Source: a virus (Duplodnaviria > Caudoviricetes). Taken from it: a stretch of DNA of 35,972 bases. The stretch lies in IMG/VR virus record IMGVR_UViG_3300021082_000069, positions 1 to 35,972 of that record, one strand, 5' to 3'. Shown in pieces: positions 904-35,633 of the stretch. The notes below the pieces were generated by a model. The model was not told the DNA's origin. It searched no databases and worked only from the letters and a program-made list of their open reading frames with translations. A program made the translations under genes and the position numbers. Positions within the stretch are counted from its first letter, which is position 1; each line of letters opens with the position of its first letter.

Positions 904-1098
904 CTATTTAGCTGCTGGGCCCGAAACCTTTGAAATTGGGGCACGACGGGCCCTCAGCCGGCGCATGCGCTCGCGGGCCTGGGCGCGAAGGATGTGCTCG
1001 CGGCCGGCGCGCCACTTCCGGTTGGCTTCGCGGATCTTGTCCGGGTTGCGCCTGGCCCAATCGAGGCGGGACTGTTTTTGCTGCCAGGTGAGGCTCAT
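904..1098 (-). CDS. Small Arg-rich helical protein
   Basis: 64 aa, ATGA-coupled to the PolX stop; WARRNPDKIREANRKWR type basic helix seen in phage nucleic-acid-binding proteins. Confidence 0.7.
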   Translation of the reverse strand: MSLTWQQKQSRLDWARRNPDKIREANRKWRAGREHILRAQARERMRRLRARRAPISKVSGPAAK

Positions 1099-1619
1099 GC
1101 TTCGCGGTTTTGGGGTGGGATGAAGCCCAGGCCCAGGGCTTGAAAGACTTCTTCTTCGGTGGCGCTGGCGAGCAGGCGGTTGTCCTGGTCGTAGACGCCC
1201 TGGTAGGGGTTCCAGCGGAGGCCGTTTCGTTTGGCGTGTTCCACCAGTTTAATGTTGTGGTTTTTGCTTCCGGTGCGGCAGATCAGGAGGGTGCCGAAGT
1301 TTGACGGGGTGGTTTCGAACAGGGTCTTGGATTCCGGCCGGGCAAAGAAGATATCTAGCTGAATTTCATCGCCGCCGGCGACAGTCCTGGTGAAGATGCA
1401 GTTCTGGGGGCCGTCGACTTTTTGCACCCAGCGTTCACAGCAGCGGCTGACGATGTTCAGGCGCTGGATCTCGGTGGCTTCAATGACGAGGTCGATGTCT
1501 CCACAGACAGGCCGGGAGCGTCGGATGGAGCCGGCGATGACGAGCTGGGTGCAGAGGGGTTTGAGTTCGCCATAGATCTTGAGGGCGAGCTGGGTGGCGC
1601 GTTGGAGGGGGAGGCTCAT
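1095..1619 (-). CDS. polX: Minimal X-family DNA polymerase / nucleotidyltransferase (palm plus C-terminal subdomain only)
   Basis: IAGSIRR, GDIDLV (DxD), QLDIF (third Asp), TGSKNHN, TEEEVFQALGLGFIPPQNRE: the PolX motif series; no 8-kDa, HhH or PHP domain. Confidence 0.9.
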   Translation of the reverse strand: MSLPLQRATQLALKIYGELKPLCTQLVIAGSIRRSRPVCGDIDLVIEATEIQRLNIVSRCCERWVQKVDGPQNCIFTRTVAGGDEIQLDIFFARPESKTLFETTPSNFGTLLICRTGSKNHNIKLVEHAKRNGLRWNPYQGVYDQDNRLLASATEEEVFQALGLGFIPPQNREA

Positions 1620-13306: not shown

Positions 13307-13390
13307 CAGAGGGAACGGAGAATTCGGAATTGGGAATTGGGAATTGGGAATTTGAAAGCTGGAAGACAGGATGGACAGGATGGACAGGAT
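13293..13390 (+). repeat. Composite tract: 9-mers (AACAGAGGN), heptamers GGGAATT x4, 9-mers GACAGGATG x3
   Basis: ttaacaggaggtaacagagggaacggag / aattcggaattgggaattgggaattgggaattt / gacaggatggacaggatggacaggat. Confidence 0.85.
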
Positions 13391-13396
13391 TGGGAA

Positions 13397-13419
13397 GCAC
13401 TCCTTACGTCGTGCCCTAC
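13397..13419 (-). repeat. REP-like element (GTAG plus imperfect hairpin)
   Basis: Minus strand GTAGG-GCAC-GACGTAAGGA-GTGC. Confidence 0.45.
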
Positions 13420-13659: not shown

Positions 13660-13857
13660 ATGAAAGCAATCGAGTTCCTGCGCGGGAAAAAAACCTACTT
13701 CACGGTGGCGATCGGCGTGCTTTACGTCGGGGGCTGCTATCTCGGGTTCTATGAGTTCGACGAGAAGGTGCTGGTGGTTCTCGGGCTGGGATCGGTGGCG
13801 TTTCTGAGGGCGGCGATGCCCAAGAAATCTGAGGATGTAAAACCGATGAACCAATAA
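13660..13857 (+). CDS. Holin-like small membrane protein
   Basis: 65 aa, FLRGKKTY followed by two TM segments and a charged tail; first late gene; start re-called to ATG 13660. Confidence 0.6.
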   Translation: MKAIEFLRGKKTYFTVAIGVLYVGGCYLGFYEFDEKVLVVLGLGSVAFLRAAMPKKSEDVKPMNQ

Positions 13858-13867
13858 ACGGTTAACC

Positions 13868-13901
13868 GGGGCGGCCCTTTCGGGGGCCGCTCCTTTCTTT
13901 T
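13868..13901 (+). terminator. Rho-independent terminator-like hairpin inside the late operon
   Basis: GGGGCGGCCCT-TTCG-GGGGCCGCTCC followed by TTTCTTTT. Confidence 0.75.
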
Positions 13902-13908
13902 CAACATT

Positions 13909-14364
13909 ATGAAATCATTCAAGCGGATCGGATTGATGGCGGTGGTGGCGGTGGTGGCGAGCCTGGTGGTGGTCGGGTGTTCTTCCACGAAGCTGGAATC
14001 GGGCGGGGCTTACGCGCCGGTGGATGTTTCGGGGAACGCGATCGTGAAGCCGGATCCGGCGTTCTACGTGATCGACGCGGCCTACGCGGTGGCTTACGCG
14101 ACGGTGGACGGGGTGTTCAAGTTCGAGCAGGACAACCGGCTGTTTCTCTGGCAGGTGTCGCCGAACTTCAAGCAGGCGCTGGATAAGATCCGGCCGGAGG
14201 CGGTGAAGGTGAGGGATGATTACGCGCGGTGCCGCCTGGCGTATAAGGCGAACCCGGTGCCGGCGAATCTGACGCAGTTGCAGACGGCACTGGCGCGGGT
14301 GCAGCAGTTGACGGCGACGGCCGCGGCGCTGCTGCCAACAGCGACAACGAAGACGGGGAACTGA
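13909..14364 (+). CDS. Lipoprotein (lysis-region, spanin-like position)
   Basis: MKSFKR, hydrophobic core and VVG-C lipobox; helical mature part. Confidence 0.8.
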   Translation: MKSFKRIGLMAVVAVVASLVVVGCSSTKLESGGAYAPVDVSGNAIVKPDPAFYVIDAAYAVAYATVDGVFKFEQDNRLFLWQVSPNFKQALDKIRPEAVKVRDDYARCRLAYKANPVPANLTQLQTALARVQQLTATAAALLPTATTKTGN

Positions 14365-14371
14365 ACTGGGT

Positions 14372-14399
14372 TTAACAGAAGCAAACGAAGGAAACGAAG
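14372..14399 (+). repeat. 9-mer tract AACGAAG(G/C)A x3
   Basis: ttaacagaagcaaacgaaggaaacgaag. Confidence 0.75.
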
Positions 14400-14401
14400 A
14401 T

Positions 14402-14638
14402 ATGAACGCAGCAACTTTAGCTTTGGTTTTGCAGGGGCTGACGGCCCTGGTGGCAGCGGCGCCGCAGGTGGAAGCCCTGGTGAAGCAGGTGAAGGATTTA
14501 ATCTCCGCGCTGTTTACGGCGAAGCAGATCACGAAGGCGCAGCAGGACGCGATGATGGCACAGGTGGACGCGATCGTGGCGCTGAGCCAGGCGGGGATCG
14601 TGCCGAGTCATTGGGCGGTGCAGCCGGATCCGCAGTGA
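14402..14638 (+). CDS. Small amphipathic helical protein
   Basis: 78 aa, hydrophobic N-terminus. Confidence 0.75.
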   Translation: MNAATLALVLQGLTALVAAAPQVEALVKQVKDLISALFTAKQITKAQQDAMMAQVDAIVALSQAGIVPSHWAVQPDPQ

Positions 14639-14643
14639 TTCGA

Positions 14644-14673
14644 GACGGACGCCTCGGCGAGGCGTCCCTACCT
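14644..14673 (-). repeat. GTAG-type REP-like palindrome, copy 1
   Basis: Minus strand GTAG-GGACGCCTC-GCC-GAGGCGTCC; 30 bp identical to 23425-23454. Confidence 0.85.
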
Positions 14674-14681
14674 TGTTACGT

Positions 14682-15131
14682 ATGACGAATCCTCCTGTTG
14701 AGATTGCGGCCTGGCTGGCGTGCCTGGCGTTTGTGGTGATGCTGGTGAACCAGGGGTCGAAGGCGGTCTCTATTTTTCGGGGGAAACCTGAAGCTGCGGA
14801 GGTGGAGCGGGATGCCCAGGCGCGGTTCGCTACCAAGATCGAGTGCCACGATAAGCACAAGCGGATCGAGGAGGAGAATGCCCGGATCTGGAATAAGATC
14901 GGGGGGATCGAACGGGGGATGAGGGAGCACGTGGATAAGTTGTCGGAGGTGTGGCGGTCCCGGCTGGAGGAGCAGGTGGGGGCGATGCGGAAGGAGCGGC
15001 AGGAGGATCTGGGCGAGCTGCATGGCAAGGTGAATAAGGTGGACCGGGAGATCGGCGAGATTTCGGCCCAGGTGAAGGGGATCTCGGCGCAGTTGGAACG
15101 GTTGGACGACAAGCTTGATTCGAAGACATGA
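14682..15131 (+). CDS. Membrane-anchored coiled-coil protein (Mu gp25-like position)
   Basis: N-terminal TM then a long heptad region; start re-called to ATG 14682. Confidence 0.75.
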   Translation: MTNPPVEIAAWLACLAFVVMLVNQGSKAVSIFRGKPEAAEVERDAQARFATKIECHDKHKRIEEENARIWNKIGGIERGMREHVDKLSEVWRSRLEEQVGAMRKERQEDLGELHGKVNKVDREIGEISAQVKGISAQLERLDDKLDSKT

Positions 15132-16037: not shown

Positions 16038-17479
16038 GCCGGCCGGAGGCGCTGATCAAGTTCCGGAAGTACCAGCTCACCGTGTTCCTGGACCGGAAGT
16101 CGGGCATTTTGATTTTGCACTGGTCGCGGCAGATCGGGAAGTCATTCACGCTGGCGGGCTGGGCGGTGGACCGGCTGCTGACGCAGTTGCAGCGGTATGA
16201 CTCCTGGCTGATCACGGTGCTGAGCAATTCGCGGGACAATGGTGCGGAGTTCAATTTGAAGTGCGGGGAGGTGTGCCGGAAGATGAGCCTGGCGTTTGAG
16301 AGCGAGGATAGCTCGCCGGATCTGACGTATGAGAATATGCGGATGGAATGCCGGATCACACTGAAGGTGGAGGGGCGGGAGCGGGTAGGCCGGATCAAGG
16401 TGCTGGCCGCGAACCCGAGGACGGCGCGGGGTTTCTCCGGGGATTTGATCCTGGACGAATTCGGGTTTCACGAGGATAGCAACGCGATTTGGGAGGCGGC
16501 GGAGCCGATCCTGTCAGCGAACCCGGAGTTTCTGTGCCGGATATCATCCACGGGGAACGGGAAGCACAACATGTTTTACCGGATGTGTTCGGGGGAGGGG
16601 CCGAATGACGGGACGCCGTTTTTGTCGGCGGCGGGTTTCCGGGTGTGCCGGGTGACGCGGACGGAGGCGCACCGGATGGGGGTGAAGGTTTACGATCCGA
16701 ACACACGGAAGCCGATCACGCCGGAGGAGGCGCGGGCGAAGGCGATGGACAAGCGGGCGTATGATCAGAATTACGAGTGCCGGTTCAATGACGAGAACAT
16801 GGCGCTGCTGACGCACGAGTTGATCAGCGCGGCGCAACGGATCGAGACGCCAGTGGATAATCAGCGGTGGAGCGAGGCCAGCATCCAGCGAATGTTCCGG
16901 GCCCAGGGTGATTTGTACGTGGGGAATGATATTGGGCGGAACCGGGATTTGTCAGTGGTGACGGTGCTGGAGAAGGTGGGGCAGTTGAAGCGGGTGATTG
17001 GGATGCTGCGGATGAGCGGGATGCGGATGCCGGCGCAGCAGGAACAGGTGGACGCGGTGTGCCGGCTGCCCAAGTTCCGGGGGTATGAGGGTGATATGAC
17101 GGGCCTGGGAGTGGGCCTGGTGGAGTATTTGCAGGAGACTCATGGCGATTACCGCATCCGCGGGGTGAATTTTGCATCAACGGAGCCGTTGACGGAGCGG
17201 ATCCGGTCGGACGGCCGGCGGGGGGAGACGGCGCGGGTGACGGAGATCATGGCGACGAATCTACTGGCATGCTTTGAGGAGCGGTCGATTGAGATTCCGG
17301 ATGACCAGGAGTTGAGGGATGACCTGGTGAAGCCGGAGAAGATCACAACACCAGGTGGGCGGGTGAGTATTGCGGCGACACGGGATGAGGCTGGCCACGC
17401 GGATCATTTCTGGAGCCTGGCGCTGGCGGTGAGAGCGGCAGAGATGCGGACGGTGAAATATTTTGCGGCGGTGATCTAA
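16034..17479 (+). CDS. terL: Terminase large subunit (Mu gp28-like)
   Basis: WSRQIGKS, ANPRTARGFSGDLILDEF, SSTGNG, GNDIGRNRD, DMTGLG, GHADHFWSLALA; start re-called to ATG 16034. Confidence 0.95.
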   Translation: MSRPEALIKFRKYQLTVFLDRKSGILILHWSRQIGKSFTLAGWAVDRLLTQLQRYDSWLITVLSNSRDNGAEFNLKCGEVCRKMSLAFESEDSSPDLTYENMRMECRITLKVEGRERVGRIKVLAANPRTARGFSGDLILDEFGFHEDSNAIWEAAEPILSANPEFLCRISSTGNGKHNMFYRMCSGEGPNDGTPFLSAAGFRVCRVTRTEAHRMGVKVYDPNTRKPITPEEARAKAMDKRAYDQNYECRFNDENMALLTHELISAAQRIETPVDNQRWSEASIQRMFRAQGDLYVGNDIGRNRDLSVVTVLEKVGQLKRVIGMLRMSGMRMPAQQEQVDAVCRLPKFRGYEGDMTGLGVGLVEYLQETHGDYRIRGVNFASTEPLTERIRSDGRRGETARVTEIMATNLLACFEERSIEIPDDQELRDDLVKPEKITTPGGRVSIAATRDEAGHADHFWSLALAVRAAEMRTVKYFAAVI

Positions 17480-18132
17480 TGAAAGCCGAAACCCGAAAAC
17501 CGAATTCCGAGAGAAGTCCGAAGGGCGAAAGCCGAAGGGGGCGAGGGTCGAGGGGCGAGGGTCGAGGGGCGGGGCTACGGGGCTCTACGGCGTTTTCTGG
17601 GCTCCATTGGTGCGGGTTGGGGCTCCGGCGCGGCTACGGGGCTGTTAACGGGCTTTTAAGTACCTCCCTGAAGGTGGTTACACTGAGCATTTTGGGTCGC
17701 GCACACGGCATCCTCCTACCGACTCCCACCCGGACCTGGTTGTCCGGGTTGTGCGCGGCTCTTGTTTTGGCGGGTTGTGCGCAGGAAAATGTGAAAGGGG
17801 CGAGGGGCGGGGGGCGAGGGGTGGAAGAATGGAAGGGTGGAAGGGTGGAATTTCCGGCGTTACCGGGGGACGTGGGACGTGGGGCGAGGGTCGAGGTGGG
17901 GAGTGGCGAGACGCCGCCGCCACCCGCAGCCGGGGACGGCCGCGTTACGGTGGTGCTCGCTTGGTCGAATGTTCCGGTTGGGTTGCCCGTGACCTGGAAG
18001 ACTGGAGTGGAAGGTTCAACGAACCTGGTTAACTGGGAGTTGATCGCGATGGTGCCTTACGCGAGTTCGAACCTGGTGACTTTGAGCAATCAGCCGGCGG
18101 TGCGGTTTTACCGGGTCTATAACACGTACTAA
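17479..18132 (+). CDS. Probable lipoprotein with STNLxxW...FYRV C-terminal domain; true start uncertain
   Basis: LVLAG-C lipobox about 100 codons into the ORF; C-terminal VEGSTNLVNW...RFYRV; the 5' part is mostly repeat-derived. Confidence 0.55.
   Translation: MKAETRKPNSERSPKGESRRGRGSRGEGRGAGLRGSTAFSGLHWCGLGLRRGYGAVNGLLSTSLKVVTLSILGRAHGILLPTPTRTWLSGLCAALVLAGCAQENVKGARGGGRGVEEWKGGRVEFPALPGDVGRGARVEVGSGETPPPPAAGDGRVTVVLAWSNVPVGLPVTWKTGVEGSTNLVNWELIAMVPYASSNLVTLSNQPAVRFYRVYNTY
17903..17948 (-). repeat. REP-like double hairpin inside a CDS
   Basis: Minus strand GTAA-CGCGGCCG-TCCC-CGGCTGCG followed by a GGCG-TCT-CGCC hairpin. Confidence 0.6.
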
Positions 18133-18180
18133 CCGACGGAAGACTGGAATGATGGAAGGCTGGAATACTGGAATTTTGGA

Positions 18181-18435
18181 ATGATGGATCGAACTGCCAA
18201 TTCGCGGACGATGCGGGTGCTCCGGATGATCGGGGAGGGGCTTTGCATTAAGGAGATCGCGTCGCTGCTGTCGGTGAGCTGCAAGACGGTGGAGTACCAC
18301 TGGGGACAATGCAAACGGGTTTACGGGTTCCGGTGTTACCAGGATGCGACGCATTTTTGTCTGAGCTCCCGGATGATCCGGAATGAGTTTGATCCTGGGG
18401 ATGAAACCAGGGAGGCGGTTAACCAGGCGTTTTGA
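18181..18435 (+). CDS. Stand-alone LuxR/GerE-type HTH protein
   Basis: RVLRMIGEGLCIKEIASLLSVSCKTVEYH, the LuxR signature; no receiver domain. Confidence 0.85.
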   Translation: MMDRTANSRTMRVLRMIGEGLCIKEIASLLSVSCKTVEYHWGQCKRVYGFRCYQDATHFCLSSRMIRNEFDPGDETREAVNQAF

Positions 18436-18437
18436 TC

Positions 18438-20684
18438 ATGAGCTTGATTTCCAAATTGAAGGGGTGGCTGGGGGCGCGGACGAAGTCGATGAACGTTTCG
18501 GCGTGGATGCGGGGGGAGGAATCCGGGCCGACGGAGCGGATGGTATCACCGTATTCTCAATCGGCCTGGGTGCAATCCGCGATCAAGAAGGTGGCGCAGC
18601 CTATTTCCGCGGTGGGTGTGGATTTTTACCGGGCCGGGACAGGCGCCCGCGGCCGAGGGCGAGGGCGACGGGCGTACACTACTTCGCGCGGGGTGGTGAG
18701 GCGGAGCGACGACCAGGCGGTGGAGCTGCCGGCGATGGAGGAGTTCCTGCGCGCGCCAATGCAAGGGATGGATCGCACAGACCTGGTGGAGGCGACGGTC
18801 GGCTGGCTCAAGCTGGCTGGGGAGTCGTTTTGGATCCTGCCGGATGACGTGCTGATAATGCACCCGAACGAGCGGCGGACGTTTCAGATCATCGTGGGAC
18901 GGCCGGATCGGATGCGGCACGTGGATGAGAATGGAGCGATCAAGGGCTGGGTGTTCTCGGATGCCAAGGGGCGGTCGATACCACTGCTGGCGGAACAGGT
19001 GATCCACACGAAGTTTTGGAATCCGTATGACCCATACCGCGGGCTGGGCGAGTTCGAGGCGGCCCGGATCGCGGCGGACTCGGCCTGGCTGGCGGGGAAG
19101 TTCAAGCGGAATTTGATGGCGGGCAACGGGGATACCGGACCGTACGTGGTGGCCAAGAACGGAATCCCGAGCGACGAGCAACGGGAGCAAATCCTGGAGG
19201 AGTTGCGCAGGAAACGAGCGGCGCAGTTGCGCGGGGAATTCCGGCCGATCTTTTTGAGCGGGGATATCGCGGTGGAGGATCCGCGGATCCGGGTGGTGGA
19301 TGCGGCGTTTATCGCGGGGCAGATTGAGGACCGGCACGAAATCTACGTGGCGTTTGGAGTGCCGCCCAGCATGGCGGATGTGAAGGCGGCGTATTCGATT
19401 GGAAGCGCATCGGATTTCTACCAGCTAATTACTACTACGTGCGTGCCCACCGGGGAGAAGTTTGCCGGGGCGCTGGAGAAGCTGGCGCGGAAGATGATCG
19501 GCCAGGAGGTCGAGTGCCTGCTGGATTGGAATGAGCACCCCGTGATGCAGGAGGTCCGCAAGGAACGGCTGCAGGCGATTGACGGGCTGTGGTCGAAAGG
19601 GATGCCGATGGAGGAGATCAGCGAGTATTTGGGGCTGGCGCTGCCGGAGTTTACCGGATGGGAGCGCGGGTATCTGCCGTTCAGTGTGTCGCCGGTGGAG
19701 GATGCCGCGGTGAGCCCAAGCGAGGATCCGAGCCTGGCGGAGACGGGGAATGGGACCGGGAATGCTGAAGACGAAGGGAATAATGGAATTTTGGAAGATG
19801 GAAAAAATGGGGGCGAGGGGCGAGGGGCGAGGGGCGCCGTGGCTGAGGCTTTGCGGTCGATTGAACTGGTGACTTCGCGGGCGGATAGCACGGCGGTTTG
19901 GGAGGGGCACATGCGGAAGCGGAAGCCTACGGTGCGGGCGTTTGAATCGAAGGTGCGCAAGGTGCTGATGGATTTTCGGGCGGAGACACTGCGGAAGCTG
20001 GAGGGGATACGACTGGGAGGGAAGGGAATGGTGGAAGGATGGAAGGTTGGGGAGGTTGGGGAAACCACAACGCGGGGGCTTATTGATTTGATTTTTGATC
20101 CGGAGCGGTTTGCTCGGGCTTTGCAGTTGTCGGTAAACCCGGTGATGAGTTCAGCGCTGCAGGTGGCGGGTGAGCAGTTGTTCCAGGAGATCGGGAAGTA
20201 TGATCCGTGGAAGATGCCGCCGGCGGAGGCGGTGAAGTTTATCCAGGAGCGGAATCAACTGGTGGCGGGGTGCAGTGCGACGGCGCGGCAGCAGTTAAAC
20301 ACGGCACTGGAACAGGGGCTTAAAGACGGTTTAAGCGCGGATGAATTGGCGGACCAGGTGAAGGGGGTTTTCAACAAGCTGTCGACGTATGAGGCGCGGC
20401 GGATCGCGAACACGGAGACGCAGGCGGCATTCAGCACAGCGCGGGATGCGGCGATGAAACAGGCGGGGGTGAAGTTCAAGTCCTGGCTGAGTTCGCACGG
20501 GCCGAATGTGAGGCCGACGCACGCGGCGGCGGAGGTGCGGTATGGGAATGACCCGATCCCGGTGGATGAGCCGTTCGTGGTCGGGGGCGAGGAGCTGAGG
20601 TATCCAGGGGATCCGGAGGGGTCACCGGGGAACATCATCAACTGCCAGTGTGTGGCGTTGTCGGTGAAGGCGCCGAAGGGGTGA
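18438..20684 (+). CDS. HK97-type portal protein fused to a Mu gpF/SPP1 gp7-like head morphogenesis domain
   Basis: Portal motifs (LKLAGESFW, EQVIHTKFWNPYDPYRGLG, IYVAFGVPP) then ARRIANTET, KSWL...VRPTH, F.VGGE.LRYPGDP, NIINCQC; one continuous ORF. Confidence 0.9.
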   Translation: MSLISKLKGWLGARTKSMNVSAWMRGEESGPTERMVSPYSQSAWVQSAIKKVAQPISAVGVDFYRAGTGARGRGRGRRAYTTSRGVVRRSDDQAVELPAMEEFLRAPMQGMDRTDLVEATVGWLKLAGESFWILPDDVLIMHPNERRTFQIIVGRPDRMRHVDENGAIKGWVFSDAKGRSIPLLAEQVIHTKFWNPYDPYRGLGEFEAARIAADSAWLAGKFKRNLMAGNGDTGPYVVAKNGIPSDEQREQILEELRRKRAAQLRGEFRPIFLSGDIAVEDPRIRVVDAAFIAGQIEDRHEIYVAFGVPPSMADVKAAYSIGSASDFYQLITTTCVPTGEKFAGALEKLARKMIGQEVECLLDWNEHPVMQEVRKERLQAIDGLWSKGMPMEEISEYLGLALPEFTGWERGYLPFSVSPVEDAAVSPSEDPSLAETGNGTGNAEDEGNNGILEDGKNGGEGRGARGAVAEALRSIELVTSRADSTAVWEGHMRKRKPTVRAFESKVRKVLMDFRAETLRKLEGIRLGGKGMVEGWKVGEVGETTTRGLIDLIFDPERFARALQLSVNPVMSSALQVAGEQLFQEIGKYDPWKMPPAEAVKFIQERNQLVAGCSATARQQLNTALEQGLKDGLSADELADQVKGVFNKLSTYEARRIANTETQAAFSTARDAAMKQAGVKFKSWLSSHGPNVRPTHAAAEVRYGNDPIPVDEPFVVGGEELRYPGDPEGSPGNIINCQCVALSVKAPKG

Positions 20685-20766: not shown

Positions 20767-21486
20767 ATGAAGACTGTGACTAAGACGATTTACCCGGTGG
20801 CACGGGTGATGGATGCGGCAAAGGGCCTGGTGGAGTATGTGGCGTCCGATGAGACGCTGGATAGCTACCGGGAGGTGATCCGGGTTTCGGGCTGGCGGTT
20901 CGACTTGTTCAAGCGAAACGCGCCGTTCCTGGACTCGCACAAGTATGACTCGATTGGGGTGCAACTGGGGAAGGTGGTGGATTTCAAGGTGGACCGGCTG
21001 AACGGGAAGCCGGCGCTGGTGGAGGTGGTGCAGTGGGCGATTGACGTGCCCGAGAACGAGTTGGCGAAGCTAGGGTTCCGCATGACGGAGAAGGGATATG
21101 CCAAGGCGGTGAGCGTGGGGTTCTGGCCGGTCAAGATGGTGACGAGCTGGAGCGATGACAAGTCGGCTTACCAGGCTCAATTGCTGGAGCTGGGGCTGGG
21201 CGGGGACAACGCGCCGCGAGTGGTTTACCTGGAGCAACAGCAGGTGGAATTGAGCGCCTGCGTGATCGGCGCAAACCCGAACGCGCTGGCGCGGGCCTAC
21301 AAGGCGGGATGCCTCTCGGATGAGGACCTGGTGCTGCTGGAAACGCAGCGCAACAAGATTTCGTTGCCTGAAACTGACGATGAACACGCTGGATCCGCTG
21401 ATGACTCTGCCGATGTGGATCTGGCCTTGCGGCAGGCGTCGTTGGGACTGATGGCGACGGTAGTGAAGCTGTCAAAAAGCTTCTAA
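20767..21486 (+). CDS. HK97-type prohead protease
   Basis: ASDETLDSYREVI, FLDSH, AVSVGF, ELSACVIGANPNAL; start re-called to ATG 20767. Confidence 0.9.
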   Translation: MKTVTKTIYPVARVMDAAKGLVEYVASDETLDSYREVIRVSGWRFDLFKRNAPFLDSHKYDSIGVQLGKVVDFKVDRLNGKPALVEVVQWAIDVPENELAKLGFRMTEKGYAKAVSVGFWPVKMVTSWSDDKSAYQAQLLELGLGGDNAPRVVYLEQQQVELSACVIGANPNALARAYKAGCLSDEDLVLLETQRNKISLPETDDEHAGSADDSADVDLALRQASLGLMATVVKLSKSF

Positions 21487-21487
21487 A

Positions 21488-21517
21488 AAGCAGAAAGCAG
21501 AAAGTAGAAAGCTGAAA
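21488..21517 (+). repeat. Heptamer tract GCAGAAA x4 (also 25529-25559)
   Basis: aagcagaaagcagaaagtagaaagctgaaa. Confidence 0.85.
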
Positions 21518-21522
21518 TTGTT

Positions 21523-22998
21523 ATGAAGAAATACAGGAAAAAAATGGCGACGCTGCGGCTGATGGCACTGGCAGCGACGGTAATTGTGTGTGCCCTGTTG
21601 TTCCCGGCATTGCTGGCTCTGTTGATAGCGAAGCCGGCAGCGATCGGCGGCCTGGCCCTGGCGGCGATGTTCCCGATATTGCCGCGCCGGTGTGATGCTC
21701 CCGATAACGGGGGCGGCGGCGGCGGCGGTGTGGCCGAAGCGCTGACGAGGACGGCGACGGCCCTGGACAGTCTGGATGGCCGGTTAAAATCCGCCGACAG
21801 CAAGATCGTGGAGTTGGAGAAGAAGTACGGCACGGAGCTGACTCCCTTGAAGGATGACATCACCGCGCTGAAGACCGGCCAGAATGAATTGAAGTCGGGC
21901 ATGGATGAGATCAAGCGATCGAGGCTGATCACGCCGAGGACGTTGACGATTCCGCGGCGGGGTCATATCAGTGACGAATGCGCCCGCGCTGTGGCGGCCC
22001 AGTTCATCCTCCACTGTGAGCGAAGCGGGAAGATGGAGGCGCTGACATCGGTGGTGAGCCAGCGGGATGCGTTGCTGGACCAGGCGCGCGGCGCGCTGGG
22101 AATCAGCGTAAAGACGGCGCTGAGCACGAGCGATATTCCGCTCCCGACGGAGTTTGGATCGGAAATCAAAGGGCTGATCAGCGAGTTCGGCACGGTGCGC
22201 AAGGGCATGTCGATGTATCCGATTGGCATGGGGACGGCACGGCCGGCGCGCTGGGGAACAAGGCCGCAATTTGGCTCAATTGCCATGTCGGCCAGCATTA
22301 CTGAGAAATCGCCGACGCTGACGTTTGCGTCTCTGGAATCGCACAAGGTGGGCGGATTGGTGCGGCTGCCGCGCGAGATCGACGAGCAGAGCATTGTTCC
22401 GATGGGCCAGTTCCTGGCGCGTTACGGGGCGGTGGAGTTTGCCCGCGCGGAAGATACCTGGGGATTCCTGGCGGACGGCTCCGCGACTTACGAGAGTGCG
22501 GTCACCGGCGTTTGCAAGACGGCGCGTGATAACACGAAGTCGGTAGTGTTGGCCTCGACGAAGACGAAGCCGAGCGATGCCACCCTGGCGGACTTCCGCG
22601 CACTGCGGACGAAGGTGAACAAAGCCGCGCTGAACGGCCGGTTATCGGCTTACTACCTGGACAGCACGTGGGAAACAGCCCTGCCGGCTTTCCGGACGGC
22701 GGCGGAACCGAATGTGTATCAGCGGCTGCCGGATGGCTCCGCGATACTGGACGGTTACCCGATCGTGTGGACGGATGTGCTGGAGCCTTACGGGACGGCC
22801 GCGGCAGCGGACAAGTACATTGCGGCGTTTGGCGCGCTGTCCTTCTGGTGGATGGGAGAACACGGCTCCCCGCGGATCGACACCTCGGAGCACGTGTTTT
22901 TCGCGAATGACCAGCTTGCGGTGCGGTTCATCGAAGAGATCGACTTCGATTATGCCGCGCTGGACGCGATGGCGGTCATGATCACGGCCGCCAGCTAA
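21523..22998 (+). CDS. Major capsid protein (HK97 fold) with hydrophobic N-terminal leader and coiled-coil scaffold domain
   Basis: Follows the protease; IPLPTEF, KVGGLVRLPREIDEQS, ILDGYPIVWT, AFGAL, FANDQLAVRFIEEID motifs. Confidence 0.92.
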   Translation: MKKYRKKMATLRLMALAATVIVCALLFPALLALLIAKPAAIGGLALAAMFPILPRRCDAPDNGGGGGGGVAEALTRTATALDSLDGRLKSADSKIVELEKKYGTELTPLKDDITALKTGQNELKSGMDEIKRSRLITPRTLTIPRRGHISDECARAVAAQFILHCERSGKMEALTSVVSQRDALLDQARGALGISVKTALSTSDIPLPTEFGSEIKGLISEFGTVRKGMSMYPIGMGTARPARWGTRPQFGSIAMSASITEKSPTLTFASLESHKVGGLVRLPREIDEQSIVPMGQFLARYGAVEFARAEDTWGFLADGSATYESAVTGVCKTARDNTKSVVLASTKTKPSDATLADFRALRTKVNKAALNGRLSAYYLDSTWETALPAFRTAAEPNVYQRLPDGSAILDGYPIVWTDVLEPYGTAAAADKYIAAFGALSFWWMGEHGSPRIDTSEHVFFANDQLAVRFIEEIDFDYAALDAMAVMITAAS

Positions 22999-23092: not shown

Positions 23093-23170
<78 letters not shown>

Positions 23171-23375: not shown

Positions 23376-23415
23376 GAGAATTGAGAATTGAGAATTGAGA
23401 ATTTGAAATTGGGAA
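23376..23415 (+). repeat. Heptamer tract GAGAATT x4-5
   Basis: cgagaattgagaattgagaattgagaatttgaaattggga. Confidence 0.9.
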
Positions 23416-27263: not shown

Positions 27264-30155
27264 ATGAAGGGATTGATTTTAATTTTGGCGATGGCGGTGG
27301 CTACGGGCGCGCCGGCGGCGACGGTGGTGTTTCCGGTTTCGAAGATGACTGGGGGGGCGGGGAATCGGCGGGTGACGGTGACGATGAAGGCGCCGCCGGT
27401 GGTTAATGGGACGAACCTGGTGGCGTCCGCGCCGGTGGTTTTGACGCCGACAAATGGGGTGGCGCAGGTGGACCTGGTGCTGGGGGATTATTATTTCCAG
27501 ATCGAGGGGGTTAATCGGTCGGTGCCGTTCCGGGTGAACACGAATGGGGTGTTCGGGATTGTGGAGCTGACGGATCCGAACTCGCTGACGTGGCCGCAGA
27601 GTAATGCGGTATTTTATACGCGGAGCGAGGTGGACGCTTTGATTGCGGCTGCACCTGGTGGGACGAATTCAGGGACGGCGGTGGCGGTAGGACACGGGCT
27701 GGTGGCAGATACCAACAACGGGTTGGTGACGGCCTCGATTTCGGCGGATGTGGTGACGAATAACCAGTTGCAGGCGTCGTTTGGGATCGTGTCGGCGGCG
27801 GAGGCGCACTTTGGGACGGCGGCGCTTATTTCGGGGGATGGGTCGACGCTTAATAATATGACGGTGACTGGGGGGGTGGTGAATTTGCCGTCGGCGACGG
27901 GGGCTTTGGTGGTGGGAGGAACGAATGTGGTGAGCAGTGCCGGGAGCAAGGTGAACAACGTTGGAATGACGAATGGGGTGGTGAACTTGCCGGAGGTAGG
28001 GGCTCTGGTGGTGGGGGGGACGAATGTTTTGAGCAGTGCCGGGAGCAAGGTGAACAACGTTGGGTTTACCAATGGCAGCGTCCAATTACCCACTGGATCG
28101 TCCTTAAAACTCGGGGGAACTGATATCCGCGAGACCTATATCGCGACCAGCACTTTTTATGGTCGCAGTGTAACGAGCACCGCCGCGAACGCAGGCAAAA
28201 TGGATTCTGATTCGACGACAAACATCATCATCACGGCTGGGTCTGATAAGGGCCTCATCACGCTAAAAAGCAACGTGGTCGTAACGGGCACGATCACCGG
28301 GAGCGGGGCGGGGTTGACGAATTTGCCGAGGGCGGATTACACGAATCACGGCGGGCTGACGGATACCAATTTCCCGATGGTGGAGAAGCTTCCTAATGTT
28401 CGGCGCAGCCCACCGGATTGGGCGCGAGTGCCGTTTGGTGGGTTCAACACGTGGTATCAGCAGAATAGCACGCAATATCCGCCGAGCGCGTTTCAGTCGC
28501 CGACGAATAAATGGGTCTGGGTGACCAACCAGGTGAACTGGGCGATCAAGAATAACGTGCAGGATTTCTACAAGCTGATCGTCATCGACGACACCTGGCA
28601 GAATACGAATCGGCTGGCGAATGGGGATCTGTGGTGGGACCCGGCGCAGTTTCCGAATGATGGGAACAACGGATGGAGCGGGATGACGAATGTGATCAAC
28701 TGGCTACACTCACTCGGGTTCAAATTCGGGCTGTATACGGAGCTGGACCCTATTTGCGCGGCGGACATTGATTCGACGGGACCGCGTCTCCCGGCGCCCG
28801 GCAGCTACGGTTATTACGAGCAGGACGCGAAGCTGTGGTCATCGTGGGGGGTGGATTACATCAAGTTCGACATGCAGCTTGACGCAGAGACCTTCAAGCC
28901 TGAGTCGGGCCTGACACGGTTCGTGAATGCCTGGGACCGCACGGGCCGGCCGCTCTATATCATGGGGAGCGTGTCTCCGAAGGGGCACGAGGGATGGAAT
29001 GTGGACTTGTATAATGAGCCGCGGACGCCTTACTCGCCGGATTGGCCGGGGTATACGACTAACGATTACCACTTCCACCTGCAGAAGCACCTTTGGTGGG
29101 GGCGGGATCTGCAGTCGTTTGTGAGGCCTGGGATGTTCGCGTCTTACGACATTTTGCCGGAGAATATGGCGGATGGCGGGAATAGCGGGAATGCGTACAA
29201 CGGCAGCACGCCGGTGAGTTTCGAGCTGCAGCGGGCGATGTTGACGATGGGGGCGATGATGGTGTCGCCCAGGATCTACACTCGCGGGGCGGTGGACGCG
29301 CTGCCGAATGGGCTATGGCTGCAGACGAATCGGAGCGTGTTGAAGATCCTGACGGACCCGGCGTGTATCGGAAGCCAGATGGTGACGAATTCGCACGCGA
29401 CGAACGCAACGGTGTGGTGGCGGCCGCTGGGGAGTGCGACAGGGCCGGAATACGCGGTGGCGCTGTATAATTATCAGTCGAATGTGACGGCGGCGACGAC
29501 GATCTATTGCACATGGACGAACCTGGGGATCGCGAGCAACACGGTGATGAGGGTGGAGAACGCGTGGAGCAACGAGGTGTTTCTGGCCACTAATGTGTTC
29601 AGCAAAAGTGTGGCGTGCCGGGGAGCGGAGCTTTACCGATTGACGCCGGTGAGCGGGGGGACGGTTTTGTCTGACACGCCGGCGGTGTTGAAGAACACGG
29701 TGGAGATCGTGCGGGCCAACGAATGGGACATCTCGACGATGTGCACCCGGCTGAGCTATTACACTCAATCGCCGGCGCCGATCGCTGGGCAGAGCGGGAT
29801 TTCGGGGGCAGGCAATTCAGGGTATTATGGGTTCGGTTTTGACATACCGTCGTGGGCGACGAATGTGAGTGGGACGTTTTACCTGCAGGTGGTGAGCGCG
29901 TCGACCAATGTGACGGCGAATCTGGATGCCTGGACTACTTTTAATAATTCGTTTTCGTCTTCCTCCTCTTACTTCTCAGGGCAATACACGGCTTCGAAGG
30001 TGATCACGGCGACGAATGGGGGGCTGAATCCGGTGACGTTTTCGATTCCGCTGCGGCGCGAGGCGTGTGTGAACAAGCGGGCTAATTTCACGCTGGTGAC
30101 TCCGGGGGCGGAGACGATCTACGTGGTGGGGCCGGCGCAGGTGACATACCAATGA
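27264..30155 (+). CDS. Tail-fibre/spike-like protein with signal peptide and GH27 (alpha-galactosidase-family) catalytic domain
   Basis: MKGLILILAMAVATGAPA-A signal; FYTRSEVDALI fibre motif; GH27 series PFGGFNTW, VIDDTW, DPAQFP, LHSLGFKFGLY, DAKLWSSWGVDYIKFD, TGRPL, VWWRPL...AVALYN. Confidence 0.88.
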   Translation: MKGLILILAMAVATGAPAATVVFPVSKMTGGAGNRRVTVTMKAPPVVNGTNLVASAPVVLTPTNGVAQVDLVLGDYYFQIEGVNRSVPFRVNTNGVFGIVELTDPNSLTWPQSNAVFYTRSEVDALIAAAPGGTNSGTAVAVGHGLVADTNNGLVTASISADVVTNNQLQASFGIVSAAEAHFGTAALISGDGSTLNNMTVTGGVVNLPSATGALVVGGTNVVSSAGSKVNNVGMTNGVVNLPEVGALVVGGTNVLSSAGSKVNNVGFTNGSVQLPTGSSLKLGGTDIRETYIATSTFYGRSVTSTAANAGKMDSDSTTNIIITAGSDKGLITLKSNVVVTGTITGSGAGLTNLPRADYTNHGGLTDTNFPMVEKLPNVRRSPPDWARVPFGGFNTWYQQNSTQYPPSAFQSPTNKWVWVTNQVNWAIKNNVQDFYKLIVIDDTWQNTNRLANGDLWWDPAQFPNDGNNGWSGMTNVINWLHSLGFKFGLYTELDPICAADIDSTGPRLPAPGSYGYYEQDAKLWSSWGVDYIKFDMQLDAETFKPESGLTRFVNAWDRTGRPLYIMGSVSPKGHEGWNVDLYNEPRTPYSPDWPGYTTNDYHFHLQKHLWWGRDLQSFVRPGMFASYDILPENMADGGNSGNAYNGSTPVSFELQRAMLTMGAMMVSPRIYTRGAVDALPNGLWLQTNRSVLKILTDPACIGSQMVTNSHATNATVWWRPLGSATGPEYAVALYNYQSNVTAATTIYCTWTNLGIASNTVMRVENAWSNEVFLATNVFSKSVACRGAELYRLTPVSGGTVLSDTPAVLKNTVEIVRANEWDISTMCTRLSYYTQSPAPIAGQSGISGAGNSGYYGFGFDIPSWATNVSGTFYLQVVSASTNVTANLDAWTTFNNSFSSSSSYFSGQYTASKVITATNGGLNPVTFSIPLRREACVNKRANFTLVTPGAETIYVVGPAQVTYQ
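27876..28076 (+). repeat. Internal 33-34-codon duplication in the fibre shaft
   Basis: VVNLP...GALVVGGTNV.SSAGSKVNNVG.TNG twice; 34-bp identical core at 27931-27964 and 28030-28063. Confidence 0.9.
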
Positions 30156-35189: not shown

Positions 35190-35633
35190 ATGAAAAAGAT
35201 GATTGGAATGGCGGTTTTGATGGTGGGGCTGGAGGTGTTTGGGCAGGCGTATGACTTGTCAAACTGGGGGGTGACAAATCGGCTGGTGAATGGGGCGCTG
35301 CTGACGGGCACGAATAACCTGGGGACGAATGTCCTGGATGTGACGCGATACACGGACGTAGGGCTACAGGTGAAGTTCGCGGGGGCGGGATCCGGGACTG
35401 AACCGATGAAGGTGTGGCTGCTCCGGAGTGCGGATGGGACGAATTGGCAGTCTGGGGACGGAGAGGTGTGGTCGGTGCCTGCAGCCGGGTTGGCGCAGGT
35501 GGTGGCGATGACGAATTTGGACGTCGGGGCGCTGGGTTACCTGAAGTTGAGGGCGTTGACGAATGGGAACTCGGGGGATTTGACGAATGTGACGCTATCG
35601 GCCGTCTTGAAGGGGTATCGGAGGGACCGGTGA
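35190..35633 (+). CDS. Secreted beta-sandwich protein, TN-rich
   Basis: MKKMIGMAVLMVGLEVFG-QA signal-like leader; SADGTNW, YLKLRALTN; start re-called to ATG 35190. Confidence 0.75.
   Translation: MKKMIGMAVLMVGLEVFGQAYDLSNWGVTNRLVNGALLTGTNNLGTNVLDVTRYTDVGLQVKFAGAGSGTEPMKVWLLRSADGTNWQSGDGEVWSVPAAGLAQVVAMTNLDVGALGYLKLRALTNGNSGDLTNVTLSAVLKGYRRDR

What the first reader, a model, noticed from the sequence alone, without database searches (positions are those of the whole stretch)
21523..21730. Major capsid protein starts with a signal/TM-like leader
MKKYRKK is followed by about 40 mostly hydrophobic residues, then RRCDAPDNGGGGGGG before the coiled coil. The ATG at 21523 has the same AT-rich TTATG context as other late starts (13909, 25587, 26603, 35190). 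It suggests a membrane-tethered capsid precursor released by proteolysis.
Basis: partly seen in the sequence, partly recalled or inferred. Interest (0 to 1): 0.7.

Follow-up and report, generated by a model that had tools for sequence, protein, structure and literature searches.

The report
Membrane-type leader on phage capsid protein
The main shell protein gene of this uncultured Mu-like phage encodes an extra, strongly hydrophobic 54-residue head piece that about a third of its relatives keep in the same pattern and the rest lack; it likely ties the capsid precursor to the cell membrane until a protease would cut it free, a step I found described for no tailed-phage shell protein.

Summary
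Observation confirmed. ORF 21523-22998 is an HK97-type major capsid protein (PF05065, TIGR01554) in a terminase-portal-protease-capsid block of a transposable phage whose relatives lie mostly in Verrucomicrobiota. It begins with a basic n-region, a membrane-grade segment (13-36), Lys-Pro, a marginal second segment (39-54), then RRCD and a Gly run. The leader is very likely translated: pooled dN/dS is 0.48 in relatives, leader ATGs have the same A-rich context as leaderless starts, and internal starts are poorer in 32 of 33. It is conserved in pattern, not sequence: 35 of 98 non-redundant loci have it, and it changes state at least 5 times, so it is optional. Best reading (0.5): a membrane hairpin with both ends in the cytoplasm, cut off before or during shell closure. 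Neither membrane insertion nor cleavage is shown. Sequencing the mature N-terminus would not test it, because the whole scaffold domain is predicted to go at about K197. Nine literature searches found no description. This scan has noted such leaders before on other phages.

The parts
21523..22998 (+). HK97-type major capsid protein precursor, 491 aa (484 aa if started at Met8, 21544)
   Evidence: PF05065 E 3.7e-20, aa 207-483; TIGR01554 76.9 bits over cut-off 27.5; phrog_10 E 1.2e-15
21523..21558 (+). Basic n-region, aa 1-12 (MKKYRKKMATLR), 6 K/R, no acidic residue
   Evidence: Sequence; median 3 basic and 0 acidic residues before h1 in 59 leaders
21559..21630 (+). h1, aa 13-36: strongly hydrophobic, membrane-spanning length
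   Evidence: Insertion score -1.1 on my approximate scale; below 0 in 51 of 59 leaders; AF2 helix 2-36, pLDDT 82-92
21631..21636 (+). Lys37-Pro38 helix break between the two segments
   Evidence: AF2 break at 37; P-K or A-P-K at the same place in P0002, P0003, P0004, P0007, P0009, P0027
21637..21684 (+). h2, aa 39-54: marginally hydrophobic segment rich in small residues; holds the internal Met49 (21667)
   Evidence: Score +1.3; median +1.5 in 59 leaders against 2.65 for the best window of the soluble core; AF2 helix 38-49
21685..21729 (+). RRCDAPDN plus Gly7 linker, aa 55-69; candidate release site (inferred)
   Evidence: AF2 pLDDT under 50 at 52-68; an R-D/S...GGG linker recurs in the window's subclade but in only 4 of 35 leader loci
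21730..22113 (+). Scaffolding (delta) domain, aa 70-197: predicted coiled coil 68-136 and helical region, ending at the predicted maturation site K197 before T-A-L
   Evidence: AF2; a [RK]-x-[AS]-[LIV] motif found in 93 of 98 loci at this place; cleavage inferred from HK97 K103/S104 (PMC10275583)
20767..21486 (+). Prohead protease-like gene directly upstream
   Evidence: phrog_617 E 1.2e-8, phrog_4523, phrog_80; NF045541 E 2.1e-7, far below its cut-off; no Pfam hit
18438..20684 (+). Portal fused to a MuF domain; no hydrophobic leader
   Evidence: PF04860, PF04233; best insertion window +5.4
21487..21522 (+). A-rich intergenic stretch before the start codon, partly a short repeat element also found on unrelated contigs
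   Evidence: many other contigs match only 21485-21519

Best explanation
The capsid gene encodes a 54-residue leader in front of its scaffolding domain, and this leader likely inserts into the host inner membrane as a helical hairpin with both ends in the cytoplasm, so that newly made capsid precursor would be held on the inner face of the membrane until a protease cuts it free. Shown: the sequence, its pattern in relatives, selection on it, its start-codon context, and its repeated absence. Inferred: translation of the leader (strong), insertion of h1 (moderate), insertion of h2 and so the hairpin (weaker), release by a cut in or near the RRCD-Gly linker before or during shell closure (weak; enzyme unknown, the phage's own prohead protease or a host membrane protease), and removal of the rest of the scaffold at about K197 (by analogy with HK97). 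The likely benefit is to gather subunits on a surface where head assembly starts; it is an aid, not a requirement, since many relatives do without.
For: Basic n-region plus membrane-grade h1 in 51 of 59 leaders, a second apolar segment under +2.5 in 49 of 59. Same architecture despite almost no sequence identity: a search with residues 1-70 finds only the protein itself among 1024 candidates, yet 45 of 120 top homologs, 35 of 98 DNA-checked loci and 22 of 68 inspected 50%-identity representatives have such a leader. Pooled dN/dS 0.48 over 9 pairs, Fisher p 1.6e-8. Leader GC3 0.78 against 0.80 for the rest of the gene. Leader ATG context equals that of leaderless starts (median A 0.55 in both); best internal start poorer in 32 of 33. 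Two Arg directly after h2 in the window, and K/R after h2 in the P0132/P0151/P0152/P0160/L028 type, fit a cytoplasmic C-side. Portal and protease have no hydrophobic segment, so the capsid body must meet them in the cytoplasm. T4 shows that a tailed-phage prohead can assemble on the inner membrane and be released after proteolysis (PMC9958956, passages).
Against: No direct test of membrane insertion; no SignalP/TMHMM-type predictor was available and my score is an ad hoc weighting of a hydrophobicity scale recalled from the literature. h2 scores below 0 in 1 of 59 only, and that row (L035) is a misplaced window. After h2 the median is 1 basic and 3 acidic residues, which does not follow the positive-inside rule in the commonest leader type (25 of 35 loci). 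Some members have one segment or weak ones (L056, P0144, L004, L012, L053). 63 of 98 loci lack the leader, among them L025 and L027 with tail-region genes; the link to tailed elements is not significant (7 of 9 against 14 of 27, p 0.25). Single-pair pN/pS runs from 0.10 to 0.97, and the window's own pairs are weak (0.59, 0.83). No conserved cleavage motif spans the leader types and no rhomboid or other multi-pass protease was seen in the window. A tether on an inward-pointing scaffold conflicts with shell closure unless cut early.
Confidence: 0.5

Rival explanations
1. The leader never enters a bilayer: it is a hydrophobic extension of the scaffold that packs with its copies in the centre of the prohead, or a handle for a chaperone, and is digested with the scaffold.
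For: Its place at the tip of an inward-pointing scaffold (PMC10275583) needs no early cut; h2 is marginal and often followed by acidic residues; the 80alpha capsid leader is also dispensable and was proposed to act in folding (PMC5744158, passages).
Against: A 24-residue apolar h1 behind a basic n-region scores like the window's own membrane proteins and would be expected, from general knowledge of SRP/YidC targeting, to be caught as it leaves the ribosome; sequence is not conserved as a packing interface would be.
Confidence: 0.2
2. Subunits stay anchored during assembly, so the prohead grows over an inward bud of inner membrane and encloses a small protein-lipid vesicle as its core, which is dismantled at maturation.
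For: It needs no early cut and fits the scaffold's direction. My rough geometry (415 copies, 55.6 nm prohead as in JBD30, 10 nm coiled coil) puts the leader tips at about 12.5 nm radius, where two helices per subunit would fill about 40% of a bilayer (assumptions mine).
Against: No route is known for lipid to leave an HK97 shell or for a soluble portal to open into such a vesicle; close relatives with near-identical scaffolds lack the leader; no dedicated membrane or scission proteins seen in the head block.
Confidence: 0.1
3. The leader is a dosing or hiding device: it parks capsid precursor at the membrane, or sends part of it to membrane proteases, to time assembly or keep free capsid protein from host sensors.
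For: Optional, fast-evolving and often lost, as expected of an accessory trait; kept even in cassettes with only protease and capsid genes (L041, L054, L055).
Against: No test bears on it directly; it still needs insertion and release.
Confidence: 0.1
4. It is a Sec signal peptide and the capsid protein is exported to the periplasm.
For: Basic-hydrophobic order; A-x-A motifs near the end of h2 (ALA at 46-48 here; LALAAAP in the common type) followed by acidic residues; other proteins of the structural operon in relatives do carry classical signal peptides.
Against: Twice the length of those signal peptides, with two apolar segments; portal and protease have no export signal; leaderless relatives share the same gene block; an exported shell could not package DNA.
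Confidence: 0.06
5. The leader is an untranslated open frame; the real start is internal (21667 or the GTG at 21730).
For: Most relatives are leaderless; several subclade members have a Met soon after the Gly run.
Against: Selection on the leader, codon pattern, poor internal start contexts in 32 of 33 loci, and an ATG plus basic residues before h1 in all 35 leader loci.
Confidence: 0.04

Closest known systems
HK97 gp5 delta (scaffolding) domain
   Same: N-terminal helical coiled-coil pro-region fused to an HK97-type capsid domain, protease gene directly upstream, predicted cut after a basic residue.
   Different: No hydrophobic leader or membrane is mentioned for HK97 (0 hits for 'membrane' in PMC10275583); the delta domain is essential (title of a cited paper), whereas this leader is an optional addition in front of it.
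T4 membrane-bound prohead (gp20 portal with gp40, YidC, DnaK)
   Same: Head assembly on the inner face of the inner membrane, release after prohead protease action (PMC9958956, passages).
   Different: In T4 the portal binds the bilayer surface and the capsid protein has no anchor; here every capsid subunit would carry one and the portal has no hydrophobic segment.
Staphylococcus phage 80alpha capsid and scaffold leaders cut by host Prp
   Same: Removable N-terminal leader on a capsid protein, dispensable on the capsid protein (PMC5744158, passages).
   Different: 13-14 residues with an F|A site; here 40-55 residues with two apolar segments and no Prp-like motif in 35 leader loci.
M13 procoat (pVIII precursor); recalled, no call
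   Same: Coat precursor that inserts as a two-segment hairpin with both ends cytoplasmic.
   Different: M13 keeps its second helix as the coat and extrudes through the membrane; here the shell-forming part is a soluble HK97 domain 150 residues further on.

Membership tests
HK97-type major capsid protein with delta domain | Match to the family profile above cut-off | tested here: met
   PF05065 72.9 bits over 24.2; TIGR01554 76.9 over 27.5
HK97-type major capsid protein with delta domain | Terminase-portal-protease-capsid gene order | tested here: met
   same order in relatives
HK97-type major capsid protein with delta domain | N-terminal coiled-coil scaffold fused to the capsid domain | tested here: met
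   Predicted helix 68-136, pLDDT about 56-77; prediction only
HK97-type major capsid protein with delta domain | HK97 fold by structure | tested here: inconclusive
   AF2 core poorly modelled (mean pLDDT 62.5); Foldseek top rows include phage capsids but E 0.7 or worse; no PDB sequence match
HK97-type major capsid protein with delta domain | Scaffold removed by the prohead protease | not testable with these tools
   Motif at K197 conserved in 93 of 98 loci; cleavage not observed
Sec/SPase I signal peptide | Basic n-region | tested here: met
   6 K/R in aa 1-12
Sec/SPase I signal peptide | One short h-region, then a polar c-region with A-x-A within about 30 residues (definition recalled) | tested here: not met
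   42-residue apolar stretch in two segments; the family's own signal peptides are about 18-25 aa. No SignalP run possible
Lipoprotein signal (SPase II) | Lipobox [LVI][ASTVI][GAS]C at the end of the h-region (pattern recalled) | tested here: not met
   Cys24 follows V-I-V, Cys57 follows P-R-R; neither Cys is conserved
Prp-cleaved capsid leader | 13-14 residue leader with F|A site shared with L27 | tested here: not met
   0 of 35 leader loci match my Prp-like pattern; feature from PMC5744158
Two-helix membrane hairpin anchor | First segment able to insert | tested here: met
   Score below 0 in 51 of 59 leaders, -1.1 here (approximate scale)
Two-helix membrane hairpin anchor | Second segment able to insert, basic residues on both cytoplasmic ends | tested here: inconclusive
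   h2 median +1.5; RR after h2 here, but acidic residues after h2 in the commonest type
Two-helix membrane hairpin anchor | Integral membrane behaviour in cells | not testable with these tools
   Needs fractionation or topology reporters

The most novel reading that the evidence does not exclude
These phages build an HK97-type prohead on, or around, a bud of the host inner membrane: every capsid subunit is an integral membrane protein until maturation, and the hairpins with lipid form the core of the scaffold. With the signal-peptide-bearing all-beta protein encoded next to the capsid gene in relatives, this would be a tailed-phage assembly path that runs through the membrane.
Probability: 0.1. 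Interest if true: 0.9.

Novelty: new variant of a known kind. Interest (0 to 1): 0.5.

Why it matters
Tailed-phage capsid proteins are treated as soluble proteins, and the membrane-linked head assembly I found described (T4) runs through the portal. An anchor on the capsid precursor itself would add a membrane-targeting and release step to HK97-type assembly and implies an unidentified cut. The family offers natural with/without pairs that are close in the rest of the protein (L035/L082, L031/L040, L041/L021), so the question is directly testable by expressing portal, protease and capsid genes in a laboratory host. It also warns annotators that these N-termini are real and should not be trimmed.

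Tried and rejected
Internal start at 21667 or a conserved second start: rejected. Sequencing or assembly error: no sign in two assemblies that may be the source. Expression data: two RNA runs laid gave 0 and 2 contigs, neither on the leader, so nothing can be said. Cultured relatives: no match in 50,697 phage records. Solved relatives by sequence: none. Fold search of the capsid model: nothing at E 0.001. ESM Atlas: residues 1-140 gave only scores under 0.9, one of them a 91-aa cluster named phage major capsid family, mostly Pseudomonadota; residues 1-260 gave capsid-fragment clusters at 0.93-0.94; leads only. Leader homologs outside this protein by sequence: none. Phage-encoded rhomboid (lead from e1-7965051): not seen among window ORFs; the window may be incomplete. 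Link between leader and tail genes: not significant. Loss of protease or portal as an explanation of leader loss: both states keep them. Prp motif and lipobox: not met. The careful tree did not finish; the quick tree was used, rooted at the midpoint on a long branch, so ancestry of the leader is a reading, not a test. Loci L145-L166 were not analysed for leaders. No complex prediction was run. Literature: 9 searches; passages read in 11 papers; none describes a membrane-type leader on an HK97 capsid protein. Subscription journals are mostly missing and no supplements were opened, so an annotation table noting a predicted helix could have been missed.

Full report
Observation. The ORF at 21523-22998 (+) encodes 491 aa. 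It starts MKKYRKKMATLR, continues with 42 residues (13-54) holding a single charged residue, and then RRCDAPDN and seven glycines. The hydrophobic peak (2.75 over 19 residues) is far above the rest of the protein (1.11) and was reached in the first 60 residues by 0 of 5000 shuffles. Two assemblies that may be the window's source agree letter for letter.

What the gene is. The protein matches PF05065 at 207-483 and TIGR01554 above their cut-offs. It follows terminase, portal-MuF and a prohead-protease-like gene, and precedes a head-tail adaptor; the other strand carries Mu-like transposase and transposition ATPase genes. Of 30 related loci in genomes, 22 have record titles in Verrucomicrobiota, so the host is probably of that phylum (inference). 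AlphaFold2 gives helix 2-36, a break at 37, helix 38-49, a low-confidence stretch 52-68 and a long helix 68-136; the capsid core is poorly modelled. A basic-x-Ala-Leu motif at K197 is present in 93 of 98 loci and, by analogy with K103/S104 of HK97 (PMC10275583, section 6), is the likely end of the scaffold domain.

Is the leader translated? Four lines say yes. GC3 in codons 8-48 is 0.78, against 0.80 downstream. In nine member-disjoint pairs of leader-bearing relatives that I picked as the closest available, pooled pN/pS is 0.56 (dN/dS 0.48, Fisher p 1.6e-8), against 0.08 for the core; single pairs range from 0.10 to 0.97, and the window's own comparisons are saturated and weak, 0.59 and 0.83. 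The ATG before the leader has the same A-rich context as starts of leaderless genes (median A 0.55, n 35 and 63), and the best internal ATG/GTG/TTG is poorer in 32 of the 33 loci that have one. In the window the internal Met at 21667 has no A in the 20 bases upstream. Met8 is a possible alternative start and changes nothing about the hydrophobic part; P0027 begins MKKYR like the window, which favours Met1.

How far does it spread? By sequence it is not conserved: residues 1-70 find only the protein itself. By pattern it is: 45 of the 120 listed homologs and 22 of the 68 representatives I inspected out of 150, plus two more behind over-long start calls. Protein databases can mis-call starts, so I checked DNA. 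Of 145 sequences (144 loci and the window), 119 passed my filters for an intact upstream frame and core; 98 remained after removing those 97% identical; 35 have a leader and 63 do not (labels by hydropathy of at least 1.45, with L020 and L085 set to 'none' by hand because their window lies before the likely start). Some leaderless genes have an in-frame stop just upstream (L015, L027, L029, L030), so absence is real. On a quick maximum-likelihood tree of the core the label changes 18 times, at least 5 forced by well-supported branches. All deep branches of the 92-row clade holding the window have a leader, and inside the 84-row clade one leader type is scattered among leaderless rows, which reads as ancestral presence and repeated loss; the root is not inferred. 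Leader ends fall into types: P-h-h-L-T-EEQ in 25 of 35, R...GGG as here in 4, other in 6.

Anatomy across 59 leaders (35 loci, 24 chosen proteins). On an approximate insertion score, built from a recalled scale and not a published predictor, h1 is below 0 in 51 (median -1.3), h2 is marginal (median +1.5; under 2.5 in 49; below 0 in one misplaced row), the best soluble-core window has median 2.65, and the window's small holin-like protein scores +0.9. The n-region is basic (median 3 K/R, 0 D/E). After h2 the window has two Arg, but the family median is 1 basic and 3 acidic. So h1 is a credible membrane segment; the hairpin is plausible here and less certain in the commonest type.

Mechanism. 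Portal and protease carry no hydrophobic segment, so the capsid body has to stay in the cytoplasm, which needs either no insertion or a hairpin. True signal peptides in the same phage family are short, about 18-25 residues, often ending Ala or Gly before Gln, unlike this leader. I therefore favour a hairpin tether (0.5). The difficulty is geometry: HK97 scaffolds extend toward the prohead interior. Tethered subunits must be cut free before the shell closes, or they would bend membrane into the shell. I put early release first, with the flexible RRCD-Gly linker as the candidate site, but there is no shared motif and no candidate enzyme beyond the prohead protease; no rhomboid was seen in the window. 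A protein-only hydrophobic core (0.2), an enclosed membrane bud (0.1; geometrically possible on my rough numbers), a dosing or hiding role (0.1), export (0.06) and non-translation (0.04) remain. The leader is not needed by all members, including L025 and L027 with tail-region genes; its link with tailed elements is not significant (7 of 9 against 14 of 27, two loci unclassified).

Comparison with what is known. It is an HK97-type capsid protein with a delta domain. It works, if the best reading holds, somewhat like T4, whose prohead forms on the inner membrane and is released after proteolysis, but T4 is attached through the portal (PMC9958956, passages). It is not a Prp leader (PMC5744158, passages; 0 of 35), not a lipoprotein signal, and fails the shape of a Sec signal peptide. 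M13 procoat is a topological analogy only (recalled). Nine full-text searches and passages of eleven papers showed no account of such a leader; the library lacks most subscription journals and I opened no supplements. Earlier notes of this scan report similar leaders on other phages; they are unchecked and are not counted as support.

Verdict. A real, very likely translated, optional membrane-type leader on an HK97 capsid precursor: a new variant of a known kind, with an untested mechanism and a clear experimental route. Interest 0.5.

Noticed in passing
L035, L039, L044, L046, L048, L051, L058, L061, L109 and others: Many relatives in bacterial contigs are head-only cassettes: small membrane protein (like window 14682), 85-aa protein (like window 15128), terminase-small-like gene, terminase, portal, protease, capsid, adaptor, flanked by host-type genes with no tail genes seen in up to 6 kb downstream. 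Possible satellites or domesticated head modules; 15 of 151 genomes sampled from one order have a match.
   Followed up: partly
L041:4717-7032, L054, L055:4997-7212: Only protease and capsid genes (capsid with leader) between host-type genes; no portal or terminase match within 6 kb upstream. Candidate domesticated, possibly membrane-tethered shell.
   Followed up: partly
L001:7534-8106 and the same position in L002, L003, L024, L025, L026, L028, L056, L062: The gene right after the capsid gene encodes a 190-205 aa protein with a classical short signal peptide; absent from the window. AF2 gives an all-beta fold (pLDDT 88.9) with partial likeness to uncharacterised phage and tail-fibre-type proteins (TM about 0.3-0.4) and only weak PDB matches. 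Its place suggests a head decoration or fibre protein; an exported one would be odd.
   Followed up: partly
window 27264-30155 (+): 963-aa tail-region protein with a signal-peptide-like N-terminus, kept in relatives (L001, L002, L003, L026, L039), and an alpha-galactosidase-like domain (PF16499, PF17801). Rich in Thr-Asn and Asn-x-Thr/Ser motifs.
   Followed up: partly
window 35190-35633 (+): 147-aa protein at the end of the tail region with a signal-peptide-like start ending in G-Q; no Pfam hit.
   Followed up: no
window 13660-15131 (+): Small membrane protein, lipoprotein (13909, lipobox before Cys24), 78-aa and 149-aa hydrophobic-start proteins: looks like a lysis block, but no endolysin was recognised among the ORFs scanned.
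   Followed up: no
window intergenic regions, e.g. 21487-21519, 23096-23170, 23376-23410, 13320-13400: Short degenerate tandem repeats (GAGAGTT, GGAAGACT, GAGAATT, AAAGCAG) fill many intergenic gaps just before start codons; the one at 21485-21519 recurs on many unrelated contigs.
   Followed up: no
window 17479-18435 (+): A lipoprotein-like ORF (LAGC motif at about residue 100, likely later start) and a LuxR-type HTH gene (PF00196) sit between terminase and portal.
   Followed up: no
window 1095-1619 (-): 174-aa protein with DNA polymerase beta (family X) palm and thumb domains only.
   Followed up: no
   Followed up: no
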